DNA from: a bacterium
Lineage (GTDB): Bacteria; Patescibacteriota; Minisyncoccia; UBA6257; GWB1-50-10
Assembly (NCBI GenBank): GCA_021815205.1
Contig: JAKAHD010000002.1
Location: 1 to 43,537, forward strand
Direction of reading: 5' to 3'
DNA: 43,537 bases
The notes under the pieces were generated by a model. The model ran no database searches. It was not told the origin of the DNA and worked only from the letters and a program-made list of their open reading frames with translations. Shown here piece after piece: positions 22,032-33,929 of the stretch; position 1 is the first letter of the stretch, and each line of letters opens with the position of its first letter. Made by a program: the position numbers and the translations under genes.

Positions 22032-22343
22032 AAGTTAAAAATCAAAATCAGAATTTCAAATACCAAATCAATGTTTAAAATCTAAATAACAAAACAGGCA
22101 TTTTTGATATTTGGCATTTGAGCTTTAACATTTCGTCTTATTCTATTGAAAAATCGAAAAGATTTCAAGAGAAAGGGCGTTCGCCCCTTTTGACTTGTGT
22201 GCTCGGTAATGCAAAACACTTCGTGTGTTGCATTCCGCTCGCTGCGCTGCGTCAATGATGCATCTGCAATATTCGCTTCACCCGTCGCCCCTATTCTCGC
22301 CGCTTGCGGCGAGGCATTCGGTGGGTGCACAATAATCAGTGCA

Positions 22344-23621
22344 GTGAAGAAAAAAGTAAAAAGAGTTCACTCTGATTTATCCCAAGCGCAGTCGAGGGAG
22401 CGAAGTCGACCCCTCGACAAAACTCGGGGCAAAAGAGTGTTTGTCGGCATGTCCGGCGGAGTCGATTCCTCAGTCGCCGCATATCTTTTGAAGGAACAGG
22501 GCTACGACGTCGTGGGTGTCTTTATTATGGGCTATAACGTCGACGGATGCGCGGAGCGCGATGCGGAGGACGCGCGGCGCGTGGCGGGGTATCTCGACAT
22601 TCCTTTTTATGTGTTTGATTTTGGGAAGGAGTATAAAAAGAAGGTGGTGGAGTATATGATCGACGGATACCGAAAGGGAATCACGCCGAACCCCGACGTG
22701 ATATGCAACAAGGAAATAAAATTCGGATTATTCCTTGAAAAAGCGCGCGAGATGGGCGCGGATTACATCGCAACCGGCCATTATGTAAGGCTACGAAATA
22801 CGAAAAAGTACGAATATACGAAAACGAAAGCGTGGAGTAATTCGTATATTCGTAATCAATTCGTATTTCGTAGTATGTATCAAGCGAAGGACAAGAATAA
22901 AGATCAGTCATACTTCCTCTGGACGCTTACACAAGAGCAACTCAAATACTGTCTCTTTCCGATCGGGGAGTATACGAAACCGAGGGTGAGGGGAATCGCG
23001 AGGAATGCGGGACTTCCGACCGCGGAGAAAAAAGATTCGCAAGGTATTTGTTTTTTAGGACAGGTGTCCATCAAGGATTTCTTGAAGGAATACATCCCCA
23101 CGCACGAAGGAGCGGTCGTGACCGCGGACGGAATGCGGGTGGGAACGCACGAAGGCGCGGAGTTCTACACTATTGGCCAGCGCCACGGTCTGAATTTGGG
23201 AATTAAGAATAAAGAATTAGGGATAACAGGGAAGATGGAAACGAAGGCGCATTATGTGGCGGAAAAAGATGTGAAGCATAATACGATCATGGTGGCGGAA
23301 GGGGATAATAATCCATTGCTTGAAAAGAAGGAGGTTATAATCACGAATGTAAATTTCATAACCGCGACGCCCCACGAGGACGATTTGAAAAGAGGAGTTA
23401 CCGTGTACGCGAGAATCCGCTACCGCCAGCCGCTCGTCGAAGCGACGCTCATTGCCACCGATGGTAAAAAGACGCGTGCGGATAGATATCAGCATCAATC
23501 AGCGTCATCAGCATCAATCAGCGTCAAATTTTCGAAACCGATAAAATTTGTCGCACCGGGCCAGTCCGCGGTGTTTTATTCGAAGAAAGGAAGGGTACTT
23601 GGAGGAGGAGTTATTATCTAA
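22344..23621 (+). CDS. mnmA: tRNA 2-thiouridine(34) synthase MnmA with several in-frame insertions
   Basis: MSGGVDSS, TPNPDVICNKEIKF, ATGHY, KDQSYFL, KKDSQGICF, YTIGQR, RIRYRQ and APGQSAVFY; probable start GTG 22344. Confidence 0.95.
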   Translation: MKKKVKRVHSDLSQAQSRERSRPLDKTRGKRVFVGMSGGVDSSVAAYLLKEQGYDVVGVFIMGYNVDGCAERDAEDARRVAGYLDIPFYVFDFGKEYKKKVVEYMIDGYRKGITPNPDVICNKEIKFGLFLEKAREMGADYIATGHYVRLRNTKKYEYTKTKAWSNSYIRNQFVFRSMYQAKDKNKDQSYFLWTLTQEQLKYCLFPIGEYTKPRVRGIARNAGLPTAEKKDSQGICFLGQVSIKDFLKEYIPTHEGAVVTADGMRVGTHEGAEFYTIGQRHGLNLGIKNKELGITGKMETKAHYVAEKDVKHNTIMVAEGDNNPLLEKKEVIITNVNFITATPHEDDLKRGVTVYARIRYRQPLVEATLIATDGKKTRADRYQHQSASSASISVKFSKPIKFVAPGQSAVFYSKKGRVLGGGVII

Positions 23622-23652
23622 CACAATCTTGGAAACGAACGGCTCATTCTAA

Positions 23653-23692
23653 GGGTGTCCAACCTCCTTAATTTTAAGGAGGTTGGACACCC
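23653..23692. repeat. REP-like hairpin with 19-bp perfect arms
   Basis: gggtgtccaacctccttaa-tt-ttaaggaggttggacaccc. Confidence 0.9.
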
Positions 23693-23788
23693 ATAGCATT
23701 TTTGGTTTATCAGTTATCAGAGCGCGGCTCTGATAATTTTGTGGATATCTTTTGAGGAAATGGTGTTTTCTCATTCTATAATAGGAAT

Positions 23789-31337: not shown

Positions 31338-33929
31338 ATGCAACGCAATAAAAAACTTATTCTCAAATTCGAGGAGATCACCATAAAGGACGTGCCGCTC
31401 GTGGGAGGAAAGAACGCTTCCCTTGGGGAAATGATCCGCTATCTTGCGCCGCAGGGGGTGAGGATTCCAAGCGGATTCGTAGTGACCGCCGCAGCATACC
31501 GCTCCTTCTTAAAAAAATCCCGAATTCCGAATCCCGAATTCCAAATAAATCCAAAATCCAAGAAAATAAAGAAGAAGATAACGCTGGAGAGTTTTATTAA
31601 AACCACTCTTAAGGGACTTGATACGAAAGATCTGAAGAATCTTGCGGAACGGGGGAGATTGGTGCGGGAAACGATAAAAAAGACGGAGCTTCCTAGCGAT
31701 CTGAAACGCGCAATCGCGAACGGGTATGCCAACCTCGAAAAGCGGTACGGCAAAAATGCCGATGTCGCGGTGCGTTCTTCGGCAACCGCGGAAGACTTGC
31801 CCGGCGCAAGTTTTGCGGGAGAGCACGACACCTATCTGAATATGCGGGGCGTTGATGAAGTAATCGAAGCGGTGCGCGCCGCGATGGCTTCGCTTTTCAC
31901 CGATCGCGCGATTTCATACCGCGTCGATAAGAAGTTTGATCATTTGAAAGTCGCGCTTTCCGTGGGAGTGCAGAAAATGGTGCGGTCCGACAAAGGCGCC
32001 TCGGGTGTGATGTTTACCGTGGACACCGAATCCGGGTTCCGTGATCTCGTGATCATAAACGGTTCGTGGGGACTTGGGGAGATGATCGTGCAGGGAGAAG
32101 TAACCCCCGACGAGTTCCTTGTTTTCAAAAAGAATTTAGAGATCAGCATACATCAGCCTCATCAGCATACATCAGTGTTGCATCCAATAATCAGCAAAAA
32201 GCTCGGAGTAAAAAACAGAAAGATGATTTACTCCGAGGGACGCGGCATTAAAACAACGAAGATCATAACTACAAACGAGAGGGAGAAAGATACTTTCGTG
32301 CTTTCGGAAAAAGAAGCGTTGCATCTTGCGGAGTGGGGGGCGCTCATAGAGAAACATTACTCAGAAAAGAATAAGAAATGGACCCCGATGGATATCGAAT
32401 GGGCGAAAGATGGGAAGAACGGCGAGCTGTATATCGTTCAGGCTCGCCCCGAAACCGTGCAGGCGGGAAAGGATTTTTCGAAAATCAAGGAATATAACCG
32501 GAAAGAGAACGGGAAGATTCTCGTACGGGGTGCGTCCGTGGGATCGAATATTGCGAGCGGGAAAGCCCGTGTAATACTCGATGCAAAACGCATTAAGGAG
32601 TTCAAGACGGGAGAGGTGCTCGTGACGACGATGACCGACCCCGACTGGGAGCCGATTATGAAGATCGCCTCGGCGATCGTGACGGACAAGGGCGGCCGCA
32701 CCTCCCACGCCGCAATCGTTTCGCGCGAGTTGGGGATTCCTTGTGTAGTGGGCACGGAGAACGCGACAAGGATCATACGGACGGGGCAGGAGGTTACCGT
32801 AGATACGACGGGAAGCGAGGGGTTCGTGTTTGCGGGCACGTTGAAGTTCGAGGTAGTTGAACATGATATAAAAAAGATTCCGAAACCGAAGGTGCATATC
32901 ATGGTGAATATTGCGACTCCCGATTCCGCGTTCGAAAAGTCATTCCTGCCGACAAACGGCGTGGGACTCGCGCGCGAAGAATTCATCATCGCGGGCGATA
33001 TCGGCATTCATCCGAATCTGCTCCTTAATTTTGAAAAAATCAAGAAGAAATTCAAAATTCTCCCCCTGCGGGGGATCTCCCAAAGAGACACAAATTCTAA
33101 ATTACAAACAAATTCCAAATTCAAAATTTCAAAAGACGAAGTAAAACGTTTGGTAAAAAAAGTGGAAGAAAAAATGGGAGGGTGGAAAAGCCCGACGCAA
33201 TTCTATGTCGATAAGTTGGCATACGGGATCGCGAAAATCGGCGCGGCATTCTATCCGAAGCCGGTTATCGTGCGATTTTCCGACTTCAAAACGAACGAAT
33301 ATCGTACGCTTTTGGGCGGCGATCTCTACGAACCCAAGGAGGAGAACCCGATGATCGGATGGCGCGGCGCATCGCGATATTACAACCCGAATTTCGCCGA
33401 TGCCTTCGCGCTCGAGGTAAAGGCAATGAAAAAAGTGCGAAACGAGATGGGGCTCACGAATATCATTCCGATGATCCCGTTCGTGAGGACCCCCGAGGAG
33501 GGGAAGAGGGTGGTGGGTATTATGAAAAAGAACGGGCTCTCGAGGAAAAAGGATGCGACCCTCAAGATATACATGATGTGCGAAATTCCATCGGATGTGC
33601 TCCGCGCGGACGAGTTTCTCGACATCTTCGACGGCATGTCGATCGGCTCGAACGATTTGACCCAGCTTACGGTGGGGATCGACCGCGACGGGAATGAGTC
33701 CGTGCGCGGCATCACGAACGAGAACGACGAGTCGGTGAAGAAATTTATTTCCGAAGTTATTCAGACGTGTAAGAGAAGGAAAAAATACATCGGCATCTGC
33801 GGCCAGGCGCCGTCGGATTACCCCGAGTTTGCCGAATTCCTCTTAAAAGAAGGAATCGACAGCATTTCCCTGAATCCCGATACGGTTATCAAGACCACAA
33901 TTGCGCTTGCGAAAAAACACGGTAAATAG
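31338..33929 (+). CDS. ppsA: Phosphoenolpyruvate synthase (pyruvate, water dikinase) with in-frame insertions
   Basis: VGGKNASLGEM, VRSSATAEDL, DIEWA, GGRTSHAAIVSRE, EENPMIGWRG, SIGSNDLTQ and ICGQAPSDYP. Confidence 0.97.
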   Translation: MQRNKKLILKFEEITIKDVPLVGGKNASLGEMIRYLAPQGVRIPSGFVVTAAAYRSFLKKSRIPNPEFQINPKSKKIKKKITLESFIKTTLKGLDTKDLKNLAERGRLVRETIKKTELPSDLKRAIANGYANLEKRYGKNADVAVRSSATAEDLPGASFAGEHDTYLNMRGVDEVIEAVRAAMASLFTDRAISYRVDKKFDHLKVALSVGVQKMVRSDKGASGVMFTVDTESGFRDLVIINGSWGLGEMIVQGEVTPDEFLVFKKNLEISIHQPHQHTSVLHPIISKKLGVKNRKMIYSEGRGIKTTKIITTNEREKDTFVLSEKEALHLAEWGALIEKHYSEKNKKWTPMDIEWAKDGKNGELYIVQARPETVQAGKDFSKIKEYNRKENGKILVRGASVGSNIASGKARVILDAKRIKEFKTGEVLVTTMTDPDWEPIMKIASAIVTDKGGRTSHAAIVSRELGIPCVVGTENATRIIRTGQEVTVDTTGSEGFVFAGTLKFEVVEHDIKKIPKPKVHIMVNIATPDSAFEKSFLPTNGVGLAREEFIIAGDIGIHPNLLLNFEKIKKKFKILPLRGISQRDTNSKLQTNSKFKISKDEVKRLVKKVEEKMGGWKSPTQFYVDKLAYGIAKIGAAFYPKPVIVRFSDFKTNEYRTLLGGDLYEPKEENPMIGWRGASRYYNPNFADAFALEVKAMKKVRNEMGLTNIIPMIPFVRTPEEGKRVVGIMKKNGLSRKKDATLKIYMMCEIPSDVLRADEFLDIFDGMSIGSNDLTQLTVGIDRDGNESVRGITNENDESVKKFISEVIQTCKRRKKYIGICGQAPSDYPEFAEFLLKEGIDSISLNPDTVIKTTIALAKKHGK

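What the first reader, a model, noticed from the sequence alone, without database searches (positions are those of the whole stretch)
22359..23525. mnmA carries four in-frame insertions that look like non-coding repeat elements
Seen: (1) 72 bp between two copies of AAAAGAGT (22359 and 22431), an apparent 8-bp target duplication giving KRV...KRV, containing a gtcgaggg/ccctcgac hairpin. (2) An 83-bp TACGAA-repeat hairpin at 22791-22873 between ATGHY and KDQSY. (3) A GAATTAA/G heptamer run at about 23193-23223. (4) A perfect 19-bp tandem repeat at 23488-23525. All preserve frame and avoid catalytic motifs. Known precedent: Rickettsia palindromic elements insert into ORFs. Inference: several element families colonise surface loops of a housekeeping enzyme.
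Basis: partly seen in the sequence, partly recalled or inferred. Interest (0 to 1): 0.8.

Follow-up and report, generated by a model that had tools for sequence, protein, structure and literature searches.

The report
Repeat elements translated inside mnmA
An intact tRNA-thiolation gene (mnmA) of an ultra-small Patescibacteria (CPR) bacterium carries extra codons supplied by the same small repeat and hairpin DNA elements that litter the space between its genes, much as the palindromic elements of Rickettsia do.

Summary
Three of the four features are at the stated coordinates; the fourth is weak. Insert 2 (22791-22873) is the shortest copy of a dispersed inverted-repeat element with TACGAA-rich 34-nt arms: 26 paired copies in this 735-kb genome, nearly all between genes. 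Insert 4 (23488-23525) is a copy of an ATCAGC-phased module: 56-58 copies, 18 of them in frame inside 11 ORFs such as LigA, GatB, LepA, LeuRS, ThrRS, TsaD, IscS and PPDK. Insert 1 is a 72-bp hairpin between exact 8-bp direct repeats. Removing it restores a canonical N-terminus, but it may lie upstream of the real start codon. Insert 3 is not an element. It is a 20-residue loop kept at the protein level, with synonymous DNA change, in nine relatives.

The same MnmA loops carry other hairpin or heptamer inserts in relatives (20 of 37 at the insert-2 site), always in frame and stop-free. Four independent run assemblies reproduce the sequence exactly.

Best reading: selfish repeat DNA that survives in genes only where it stays translatable and lands on permissive surface loops. 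This is a Rickettsia-palindromic-element-like (RPE-like) phenomenon with new element families in a different phylum. I found no RNA or protein data. This scan has already reported the same phenomenon in other genes of this genome.

The parts
22344..23621 (+). mnmA (tRNA 2-thiouridylase) read from GTG 22344; 425 aa plus stop
   Evidence: ORF. Pfam tRNA_Me_trans HUP, PRC-barrel and C-terminal barrel domains. E. coli MnmA 2der at E 1.5e-80. AlphaFold2 (AF2) model with mean pLDDT 87.2 matches the MnmA structures 2hma, 2der, 2det and 2deu at TMt 0.87-0.88.
22359..22438 (+). Insert 1: 72-bp hairpin-forming segment with both copies of the 8-bp direct repeat AAAAGAGT (codons 6-32 if translation starts at 22344)
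   Evidence: Deleting 72 bp gives V-KKKVKRVFVGMSGG, with the start 12 residues before SGGVDS. Relatives have their nearest upstream ATG 8-23 residues before that motif. Single copy in G000. The 3' 27 nt recur in relatives. AF2 pLDDT is below 50 for residues 2-24.
22437..22451 (+). Alternative start codons downstream of insert 1: GTG 22437 and ATG 22449
   Evidence: In-frame starts 5 and 1 residues before SGGVDS. The public collection holds this protein as 390 aa, which equals a start at ATG 22449 (P0002).
22791..22873 (+). Insert 2: 83-nt copy of the dispersed TACGAA inverted-repeat element (residues about 150-177)
   Evidence: The arms are 91-97% identical to copies on other contigs. 64 arm matches and 26 paired elements. 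AF2 models residues 148-180 as a long beta-hairpin with block pLDDT 78-94.
23187..23246 (+). 'Insert 3': loop GLNLGIKNKELGITGKMETK (residues 282-301), a lineage-conserved protein loop and not a repeat element
   Evidence: Nine relatives (L002-L006, L011, L012, L018, L029) have the same 19-20-residue loop with the pattern GL[ND]L..K...L but different codons. No TRF array. No other genomic copy. Block pLDDT 60-76.
23472..23525 (+). Insert 4: about 15 extra codons (residues 377-391, TRADRYQHQSASSAS) that contain the ATCAGC-phased module (2 x 19 nt at 23488-23525)
   Evidence: Relatives have 27-28 residues between RYRQ and GQS where this gene has 43. The module family has 58 hits, 56 after a stricter filter. 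AF2 pLDDT is below 50 for residues 376-387.
23646..23699 (.). Palindrome just downstream of the mnmA stop; another multi-copy element
   Evidence: 26-nt arms, 92% complementary (I1). Copies on C1, C2, C3, C7 and C8. 43 nt are 100% identical to the palindrome that flanks two tandem Y1_Tnp genes on C1. Contig depth rises 5-7-fold here.

Best explanation
mnmA is an intact, probably functional gene whose reading frame has absorbed pieces of the genome's own non-coding repeat DNA.

- At the tip of a beta-hairpin of the catalytic domain sits a minimal copy of a dispersed inverted-repeat element with TACGAA arms.
- In a loop of the C-terminal barrel sits a copy of a dispersed ATCAGC-phased module.
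- At the extreme N-terminus sits a 72-bp hairpin segment bracketed by an 8-bp direct repeat.

These sequences spread, or are generated, throughout the genome at the DNA level. Inside genes, only copies that keep the frame, lack stop codons and fall on permissive surface loops escape purifying selection. They are then transcribed and translated as passenger peptides. The fourth 'insert' is an older loop that is now conserved as protein.

Shown: family membership, copy numbers, in-frame and stop-free state, orientation bias, recurrence at the same loops in relatives, and intact catalytic motifs. Inferred: translation of the inserts, neutrality of the peptides, and the way the elements move.
For: Family membership
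- BLAST of the insert-2 stretch against the genome gives 38 clustered loci at E<1e-3, with arms 91-97% identical.
- There are 26 paired elements of 83-250 nt. Only the mnmA copy lies deep in a long ORF (199 and 248 codons on either side). One more has 34 and 168 codons on its sides.
- Copies also sit in five successive gaps between ribosomal-protein genes on C6, a few bases upstream of the start codons.
- The ATCAGC module has 58 hits. Eighteen are inside 11 long ORFs, all in sense orientation and in more than one frame. Pfam confirms the hosts as PPDK, LigA, LeuRS, TsaD, LepA, ThrRS, GatB and a Wzy_C-like protein. I identified the IscS host by eye from its translation.

Translatability filter
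- The sense strand has at least 2 open frames in 49 of 56 modules. The antisense strand has at most 1 in 47 of 56. The 6 inverted pairs all lie outside ORFs.

Recurrence in relatives
- In 37 mnmA genes, the stretch between GHY and DQSYF is 15-26 residues in 17 and 33-98 residues in 20. All are in frame and without stops. E. coli has 20 residues there.
- 12 of the 20 long loops fold with z < -3, against 1 of 17 short loops and 0 of 37 same-gene controls.
- The four genomes of the same genus carry four different inserts at this site.

Mobility between genes
- The insert-2-site element of G005 mnmA is 85.7% identical over 84 nt to an in-frame element in iscS of this genome.

Structure and sequence quality
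- The extra segments fall on an N-terminal tail, a hairpin tip and loops of the model. The core matches solved MnmA structures.
- All 62 columns that are invariant across 35 MnmA sequences are kept.
- The sequence is reproduced in 4 run-wise assemblies.
Against: - There is no RNA or protein evidence. No RNA run is listed for this DNA, so translation of the inserts is inferred only from frame and stop statistics.
- Counting a copy as 'inside an ORF' requires an open frame. The 18-of-18 sense orientation is therefore a filter result, not an independent test.
- Insert 1 has no second copy in this genome, and downstream start codons could leave it in the 5' leader.
- Insert 2 shows no target-site duplication, and its 83 nt exceed the net gain of about 19 codons. 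The event was therefore not a clean insertion.
- No mobilising enzyme is linked to either family. The two Y1_Tnp genes are flanked by a different palindrome.
- No allele without the inserts was found. The next-best protein in 5.8 billion is only 64% identical, so the age and exact borders of the inserts stay open.
Confidence: 0.75

Rival explanations
1. The extra segments arise in place through a genome-wide mutational habit, such as replication slippage or template switching that builds phased short repeats and hairpins. They are not pre-formed mobile elements that move. Similar motifs recur because the same bias acts everywhere.
For: - Period-7 arrays dominate the tandem repeats of this genome: 149 of 545 arrays, 39 of them inside long ORFs.
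- Relatives carry different heptamer arrays at the same MnmA loops.
- Insert 4 is a perfect tandem duplication.
- No target duplication is seen for inserts 2 and 4, and no transposase is linked to them.
Against: - The TACGAA arms are 34 nt long and 91-97% identical between distant loci. The ATCAGC modules share a fixed 4-hexamer spacing. Local slippage would not recreate either.
- An 84-nt stretch is 85.7% identical between mnmA of one genus and iscS of another.
- Insert 1 has an 8-bp direct repeat at its borders.
Confidence: 0.12
2. The hairpin inserts are removed or skipped before the protein is made, by RNA processing and religation or by ribosomal bypassing, so the mature enzyme lacks them.
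For: - Inserts 1 and 2 fold much better than shuffles.
- A related ~140-nt element at the same site in five relatives, plus iscS here, shows 43 of 53 predicted pairs with compensatory double changes. That is the signature expected of a functional RNA or single-stranded DNA.
Against: - All 20 long inserts at this site in 37 genes keep the frame and lack stops. So do all 18 in-ORF ATCAGC modules, and stop-bearing antisense copies are never found inside ORFs. Removal before translation would make this unnecessary.
- Rfam gives no intron or ribozyme family at E <= 1 on 13 loci.
- Pfam shows no intein domain.
Confidence: 0.05
3. The extra loops are adaptive protein features of MnmA in this lineage (for instance partner or tRNA contacts), and their likeness to intergenic repeats is secondary.
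For: - Insert 3 is conserved as protein in nine relatives.
- AF2 models insert 2 as an ordered extension of a native beta-hairpin with pLDDT 78-94.
Against: - The insert-2 and insert-4 sites hold unrelated sequences in each of the four same-genus genomes, and 17 of 37 relatives have none at site 2.
- The same DNA units occur in many unrelated proteins and between genes.
- The insert-1 and insert-4 peptides are modelled with pLDDT below 50.
Confidence: 0.07
4. Assembly or binning artefact: repeats were wrongly joined into the gene.
For: Contig depth rises about 20-fold over the right arm of insert 2, which shows that this arm is highly repeated in the samples.
Against: One contig per run in 4 runs spans the whole gene with 0 differences and 0 gaps, at 16-31x depth. 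The frame stays open through all inserts.
Confidence: 0.01

Closest known systems
Rickettsia palindromic elements (RPE-1 to RPE-10; Ogata et al. 2000, as described in passages of the review PMC10969869)
   Same: Small hairpin-forming repeats that are dispersed both between genes and in frame inside unrelated housekeeping genes. The host genes stay intact and the peptides sit at sites compatible with the fold. Both occur in a reduced genome.
   Different: - A different phylum (Patescibacteria/CPR).
- I could not test for sequence relationship because no RPE sequence was at hand.
- Several unrelated families sit in one gene, including a non-palindromic phased-hexamer module and heptamer arrays.
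- The elements are shorter (35-83 nt, against about 100-150 bp for RPEs).
- The same protein loop is hit by different families in different relatives.
GTAG- and CGTC-tagged REP elements, REPINs and their RAYT transposases (passages of PMC3733652)
   Same: - Short palindromic repeats that are mostly extragenic but sometimes intragenic and translated.
- The genome encodes two Y1 (IS200/RAYT-like) transposase genes flanked by perfect palindromes.
- The TACGAA element ends in GTAG.
   Different: - The 34-nt unit of the TACGAA element is not itself a palindrome, and its GTAG pairs with CTAC of the other arm.
- The Y1 genes are flanked by a different palindrome family, the one downstream of mnmA, and not by TACGAA or ATCAGC units.
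Bacterial MITEs found inside genes (ERIC, Correia and others; review PMC10969869)
   Same: Terminal inverted repeats, small size, many copies, occasional in-frame fusions with host ORFs.
   Different: No target-site duplication is seen for insert 2. I did not identify a parent insertion sequence with matching ends. Insert 4 has no inverted repeats at all.
Translational-bypass elements (phage T4 gene 60; mitochondrial 'byp' elements of Magnusiomyces).
   Same: Hairpin-forming inserts inside coding regions of essential genes.
   Different: Bypass elements need not keep the frame and often carry stops. Here every insert I examined is in frame and stop-free.

Membership tests
MnmA / TrmU tRNA 2-thiouridylase | Three-domain architecture: PP-loop HUP domain, PRC-barrel and C-terminal beta-barrel | tested here: met
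   PF03054 at 1e-72, PF20259 at 1.2e-19, PF20258 at 2.9e-12. The model matches 2hma, 2der, 2det and 2deu at TMt 0.87-0.88.
MnmA / TrmU tRNA 2-thiouridylase | PP-loop SGGxDS and the two catalytic-cysteine motifs (NPDxxCN, DSxGICF) | tested here: met
   These motifs align residue for residue with E. coli MnmA. S37-S42, D118, C121 and C236 are invariant across 35 sequences. The assignment of the catalytic role to these cysteines is recalled from memory.
Rickettsia palindromic elements (RPE) | Hairpin-forming repeat present in many copies, both between genes and inside ORFs | tested here: met
   Met for insert 2: 26 paired copies, z -7.7. Not met for insert 4, which is multi-copy but not a hairpin (z -1.8). 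Not met for insert 1, which is a hairpin but single-copy in this genome.
Rickettsia palindromic elements (RPE) | In-frame, stop-free insertion that leaves the host gene intact, at a surface site of the protein | tested here: met
   Open frame, intact motifs. The inserts map to an N-terminal tail, a hairpin tip and a loop of the AF2 model. The surface location rests on a prediction only.
Rickettsia palindromic elements (RPE) | Sequence homology to an RPE family, or presence in Rickettsiales | not tested
The organism is a Patescibacteria genome: the nearest named homologues are Wolfebacteria, Liptonbacteria and Jorgensenbacteria. I file this as 'works like', not as a member.
Rickettsia palindromic elements (RPE) | Insert shown to be transcribed and translated | not testable with these tools
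   No RNA run holds this DNA. No proteome is available.
MITE | Terminal inverted repeats plus target-site duplication, and a related autonomous element | tested here: inconclusive
   34-nt inverted arms are present. I saw no duplication at the borders of insert 2 or of the copies I inspected. Insert 1 has an 8-bp direct repeat. I did not look for a parent IS with matching ends.
REP / REPIN with RAYT | Short palindromic unit with an unpaired GTAG tag, and a RAYT gene flanked by the same units | tested here: not met
   Two Y1_Tnp genes exist (31.5 and 29 bits), but they are flanked by other palindromes. The TACGAA unit is not itself palindromic, and its GTAG is paired. The palindrome downstream of mnmA does match a palindrome next to the Y1 genes.
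Intron, intein or ribozyme | Match to a known self-splicing RNA family or to an intein domain | tested here: not met
   Rfam at E <= 1 on 13 loci, including the window locus, gives no intron or ribozyme. Pfam gives only MnmA-type and related PP-loop families.

The most novel reading that the evidence does not exclude
The hairpin and Y-shaped inserts are not mere debris. They form a CPR-wide class of structured single-stranded DNA or RNA mobile elements, perhaps moved by the HUH/Y1 transposases or the small GIY-YIG nucleases of these genomes. Their fold is maintained by selection: 43 of 53 pairs covary in the ~140-nt element. Repeated in-frame landing on a handful of permissive loops makes them a main source of protein length variation in ultra-small bacteria. 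Possibly they also act on the mRNA, for example by pausing ribosomes at domain borders.
Probability: 0.2. Interest if true: 0.8.

Novelty: new variant of a known kind. Interest (0 to 1): 0.55.

Why it matters
- It extends a phenomenon best known from Rickettsia (selfish repeats translated inside housekeeping genes) to Patescibacteria. There, one 425-codon gene holds copies of three different repeat types.
- The same loops are re-used by at least five kinds of insert across 37 relatives. In practice this gives a map of the permissive sites of MnmA.
- It is a caution for annotation: the public gene call starts at an internal ATG and cuts off the first beta-strand.
- It may explain much of the protein length variation in CPR genomes.
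- Five full-text searches found no paper describing this in CPR. Subscription journals and supplementary files were not searched.

Tried and rejected
- **RNA evidence.** The look-up of sequencing runs listed no RNA holder, so expression and splicing could not be examined.
- **Read laying.** It used contigs only, which cannot show rare insert-free alleles. A single low-depth joint 23182->23550 appeared in 2 of 4 runs (side 20 nt, depth 4-6). I take it for another organism or a repeat and did not use it.
- **Rfam.** No family covers any insert. The only hit inside an insert is a sub-threshold tmRNA-like match (21.6 bits against a gathering score of 47) on the antisense strand of the G025 site-2 insert. 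ARAGORN found no tRNA or tmRNA in that locus.
- **DNA-uptake-signal idea.** Rejected. TACGAAT is the most over-represented 7-mer, but only 264 observed against 175 expected. ATCAGC is at 398 against 359.
- **Close allele without inserts.** None found. After the protein itself, the best of 7,617 hits is 64% identical.
- **Target duplication for insert 2.** TATGTA occurs on both sides, but excising between the copies breaks the frame. Rejected (by eye).
- **The invariant-loop hairpin seen in three relatives.** It is seen at site 2 in L003, L005 and L015. A 23-nt core of it was not found in this genome with up to 4 mismatches.
- **Promoter and terminator scan.** Counts were no higher than in shuffles; not used.
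- **Errors.** Searches failed because of my own coordinate and argument slips and were corrected. The script stopped on a bug after the site-3 listing; the site-4 part was run.
Full report
**What is there**

The window is contig C3 of a 735-kb, 12-contig genome. Its nearest named MnmA homologues are from Candidatus Wolfebacteria, Liptonbacteria and Jorgensenbacteria, that is Patescibacteria/CPR.

An open frame runs 22197-23621. Read from GTG 22344, it gives a 425-residue protein.
- It has the three MnmA domains.
- It matches E. coli MnmA at E 1.5e-80 over residues 29-424.
- The PP-loop and both cysteine motifs align with E. coli.
- An AlphaFold2 (AF2) model built on 35 sequences has mean pLDDT 87.2.
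- The model superposes on solved MnmA structures at TMt 0.87-0.88.

Against E. coli, the gene has extra residues at four places: the N-terminus, about 19 between ATGHY and KDQSY, about 5 after GQRHG, and about 10 in the C-terminal barrel.

**Checking the four observations**

Insert 1
- The 80-nt segment folds with z -3.8.

Insert 2
- The hairpin has two perfect 14-nt arm pairs and z -7.7.
- Two control stretches of the gene gave z +0.26 and -0.69.

Insert 3
- The 'heptamer run' is not called by TRF at score 30.
- It does not fold (z -1.8) and has no other copy in the genome.

Insert 4
- The perfect 19-nt tandem repeat is confirmed.

Assembly
- One contig from each of four public runs spans 22150-23679 without a single difference. 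The runs come from one study and may be the source samples.
- An assembly artefact is therefore very unlikely.

**Insert 2 is a copy of a dispersed intergenic element**

- BLAST of the region against the whole genome gives 38 clustered loci at E<1e-3. The arms are 91-97% identical.
- The unit has this form: CTACGAA[A/T]TACGAAT, 4-5 variable bases, TACGAATATACGAA, a variable centre of 18 to about 180 nt, then the inverse arm ending in TTCGTAG.
- A fuzzy search finds 64 arms. A motif search finds 26 paired elements of 83-250 nt.
- The mnmA copy is the shortest. It is the only one deep inside a long open frame (199 and 248 codons on either side). One other has 34 and 168 codons on its sides. The rest lie outside long frames.
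- On contig C6, a copy sits in each of five successive gaps between ribosomal-protein genes, a few bases upstream of the start codons.
- The net gain in MnmA is about 19 codons for an 83-nt element, and I saw no target duplication. The element seems to have replaced part of the original hairpin turn; this is inference.
- AF2 models residues 148-180 as a lengthened beta-hairpin with block pLDDT 78-94.

**Insert 4 is a copy of a second dispersed family**

- The pattern is four ATCAGC hexamers spaced 10, 9-11 and 10 nt apart. It occurs 58 times, or 56 after a stricter filter.
- Eighteen copies lie inside 11 long ORFs, all in the sense orientation and in more than one reading frame.
- Pfam identifies the hosts as PPDK (in this window, 31338-33926), LigA, LeuRS, TsaD, LepA, ThrRS, GatB and a Wzy_C-like membrane protein with eight copies.
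- IscS also carries one. I identified that host by eye from its translation.
- The sense strand has at least two open frames in 49 of 56 modules. The antisense strand has at most one in 47 of 56.
- Six intergenic loci hold inverted pairs, and none of these is in an ORF.
- This is what a filter for translatability would produce. It is not an independent test, because my definition of 'inside an ORF' requires an open frame.
- In MnmA the module adds about 15 residues (377-391) to a barrel loop that is 27-28 residues long in most relatives. AF2 gives pLDDT below 50 there.

**Insert 1**

- Deleting the 72 bp gives V-KKKVKRVFVGMSGG, with the start codon 12 residues before SGGVDS.
- In 36 relatives, the nearest upstream ATG (leaving aside the Met directly before the motif) lies 8-23 residues before that motif, apart from G008. 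In this gene the GTG lies 36 before.
- That fit, more than the 8-mer itself, supports an insertion with an 8-bp duplication.
- The segment has no second copy in this genome.
- Its 3' 27 nt recur at 88-93% identity in 6 related genomes, 7 places.
- I looked at five of these places. The motif lies in frame in ORFs that I read by eye as RNase HI and Fmt.
- Whether insert 1 is translated is open. A GTG at 22437 and an ATG at 22449 lie downstream, and the public collection holds the protein as 390 residues, starting at that ATG.
- One relative (G008) has only an ATG 40 residues upstream, with hairpins in between. An N-terminal insert must be translated there.

**Insert 3 is not an element**

- Nine relatives from other genera (L002-L006, L011, L012, L018, L029) have a loop of the same length with the pattern GL[N/D]L..K...L.
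- Their codons differ from those here.
- Two same-genus genomes (L007, L034) lack the loop. Other relatives carry heptamer arrays at this point (L008, L009, L010, L013, L015). The site is therefore variable, but the sequence in this gene behaves as protein.

**The same loops are used again and again in relatives**

- I recovered mnmA in 40 of 41 related genomes and read 37 genes through.
- Between GHY and DQSYF there are 15-26 residues in 17 genes and 33-98 in 20. All are in frame and without stops.
- Twelve of the 20 long loops fold with z < -3. Only 1 of 17 short loops and 0 of 37 control segments of the same genes do.

The long loops fall into distinct kinds:
- ACGAAT-type hairpins (this gene, L006, L010).
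- A hairpin with an invariant 32-nt centre and freely varying stems (L003, L005, L015).
- A ~140-nt Y-shaped element (L016, L020, L031, L033, L034).
- Two longer structured inserts (L028, L029).
- Plain heptamer arrays (L002, L004, L007, L008, L009, L011, L025).

The four genomes of the same genus carry four different kinds.

The Y-shaped element also sits in frame in iscS of this genome. That copy is 85.7% identical over 84 nt to the mnmA copy of another genus. An alignment of the six copies gives 53 predicted pairs, 43 of them with compensatory double changes. These elements therefore move between genes and evolve under a constraint on nucleic-acid structure.

**How it most likely works**

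The genome produces or spreads short structured and phased repeats at the DNA level. Heptamer arrays alone make up 149 of 545 tandem arrays.

Copies landing in genes are lost unless three conditions hold: their length keeps the frame, the strand and frame read through are free of stops, and the site is a loop or tip that tolerates extra residues. The survivors are carried along and translated.

The evidence is statistical. Every insert I examined is in frame and stop-free, and stop-bearing orientations are missing from ORFs. Removal from the mRNA or ribosomal bypass would make these regularities unnecessary. Rfam and Pfam give no intron, ribozyme or intein.

What moves the elements is unknown. 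The genome has two tandem Y1 (IS200/RAYT-like) transposase genes flanked by perfect palindromes. One of these palindromes belongs to the same family as the palindrome just downstream of mnmA. There are also nine GIY-YIG matches. Neither is linked to the TACGAA or ATCAGC families.

**Comparison with what is known**

The closest parallel is the Rickettsia palindromic elements. They insert in frame into unrelated metabolic genes and encode peptides compatible with the fold (passages of PMC10969869). Intragenic REP units have also been listed in several phyla (passages of PMC3733652).

The present case works like these but is not a member of either family:
- The phylum is different.
- The families are different, and one of them is not palindromic.
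- Several families share one gene.
- The REP/RAYT test is not met for the inserts.

Five full-text searches found no description of this in CPR or Patescibacteria. Supplementary files and subscription journals were not searched.

Earlier notes of this scan describe the same behaviour in iscS, dus, rsmA and a glycosyltransferase of this genome. I met the iscS copy independently.

**Verdict**

This is a real feature. It is a new variant of a known kind. The main gaps are direct evidence of translation and the mechanism of spread.

Noticed in passing
window 23646-23699; G000 C1:5935-5980 and L058:1099-1148: The palindrome just downstream of the mnmA stop is multi-copy (C1, C2, C3, C7, C8). 43 nt of it are 100% identical to a perfect 24-nt-arm palindrome lying upstream of two tandem Y1_Tnp (IS200/RAYT-like) genes of 256 and 237 aa. 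A second, different perfect palindrome follows those genes. The arrangement looks like a REPtron.
   Followed up: partly
window 31338-33926 (+): A PPDK/PEP-utilising enzyme ORF (863 aa) carries an ATCAGC module in frame at 32142-32176. TRF also lists arrays at 31515-31561 and 33090-33133 inside the same ORF.
   Followed up: partly
G000 C6:500-4200: A ~130-nt copy of the TACGAA element sits in each of five successive gaps between ribosomal-protein genes (L16, S3, L22, S19, L2, L23, as I read the translations). Each copy ends a few bases upstream of the next start codon.
   Followed up: partly
L055 (G000 C12:141078-143384, minus strand): The LepA/EF4 ORF (769 aa) has a PD-(D/E)XK nuclease domain (PF13366, E 2.4e-32, residues 88-200) nested in its GTPase domain. 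It also holds an in-frame ATCAGC module.
   Followed up: no
L051 (G000 C8:47904-50486, minus strand): A Wzy_C-like membrane protein (861 aa) holds eight ATCAGC modules. Among them is a run of 45-nt repeats that encode NQRQSASNQRSSVME.
   Followed up: no
whole genome G000: Tandem repeats of period 7 are the commonest class: 149 of 545 arrays, 39 of them inside long open frames. Periods 9 (89 arrays) and 10 (66 arrays) come next. Period 7 is not a multiple of three, yet such arrays occur in frame in MnmA loops of several relatives.
   Followed up: partly
L016, L020, L031, L033, L034 (mnmA site 2) and L049:192-361 (iscS of G000): A ~140-nt Y-shaped element has a conserved hairpin loop YTCCAGCGR and a CTCTCG...CCGAGAG helix. 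43 of its 53 predicted pairs show compensatory changes. It has no Rfam match.
   Followed up: partly
L028:2281-2350 (+), antisense to mnmA of G025: A sub-threshold tmRNA-like Rfam hit (21.6 bits, E 7e-5) lies inside the 85-residue site-2 insert. ARAGORN finds nothing there.
   Followed up: partly
window 22160-22343: The leader between efp and mnmA holds three GC-rich hairpins (about 22172-22192, 22208-22234, 22297-22314). They are unique in this genome and have no Rfam match.
   Followed up: partly
window 22449: The public collection holds this protein as 390 aa starting at ATG 22449. That start removes the conserved K-R-V-F-V-G strand before the PP-loop, so it is probably called too far downstream.
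   Followed up: partly
L028, mnmA site 4 (G025): A 23-codon insert there is bracketed by a 12-bp direct repeat TATAAGCTAAAA (YKLK...YKLK). It contains a hairpin whose loop resembles the loop of insert 1 in this gene.
   Followed up: no
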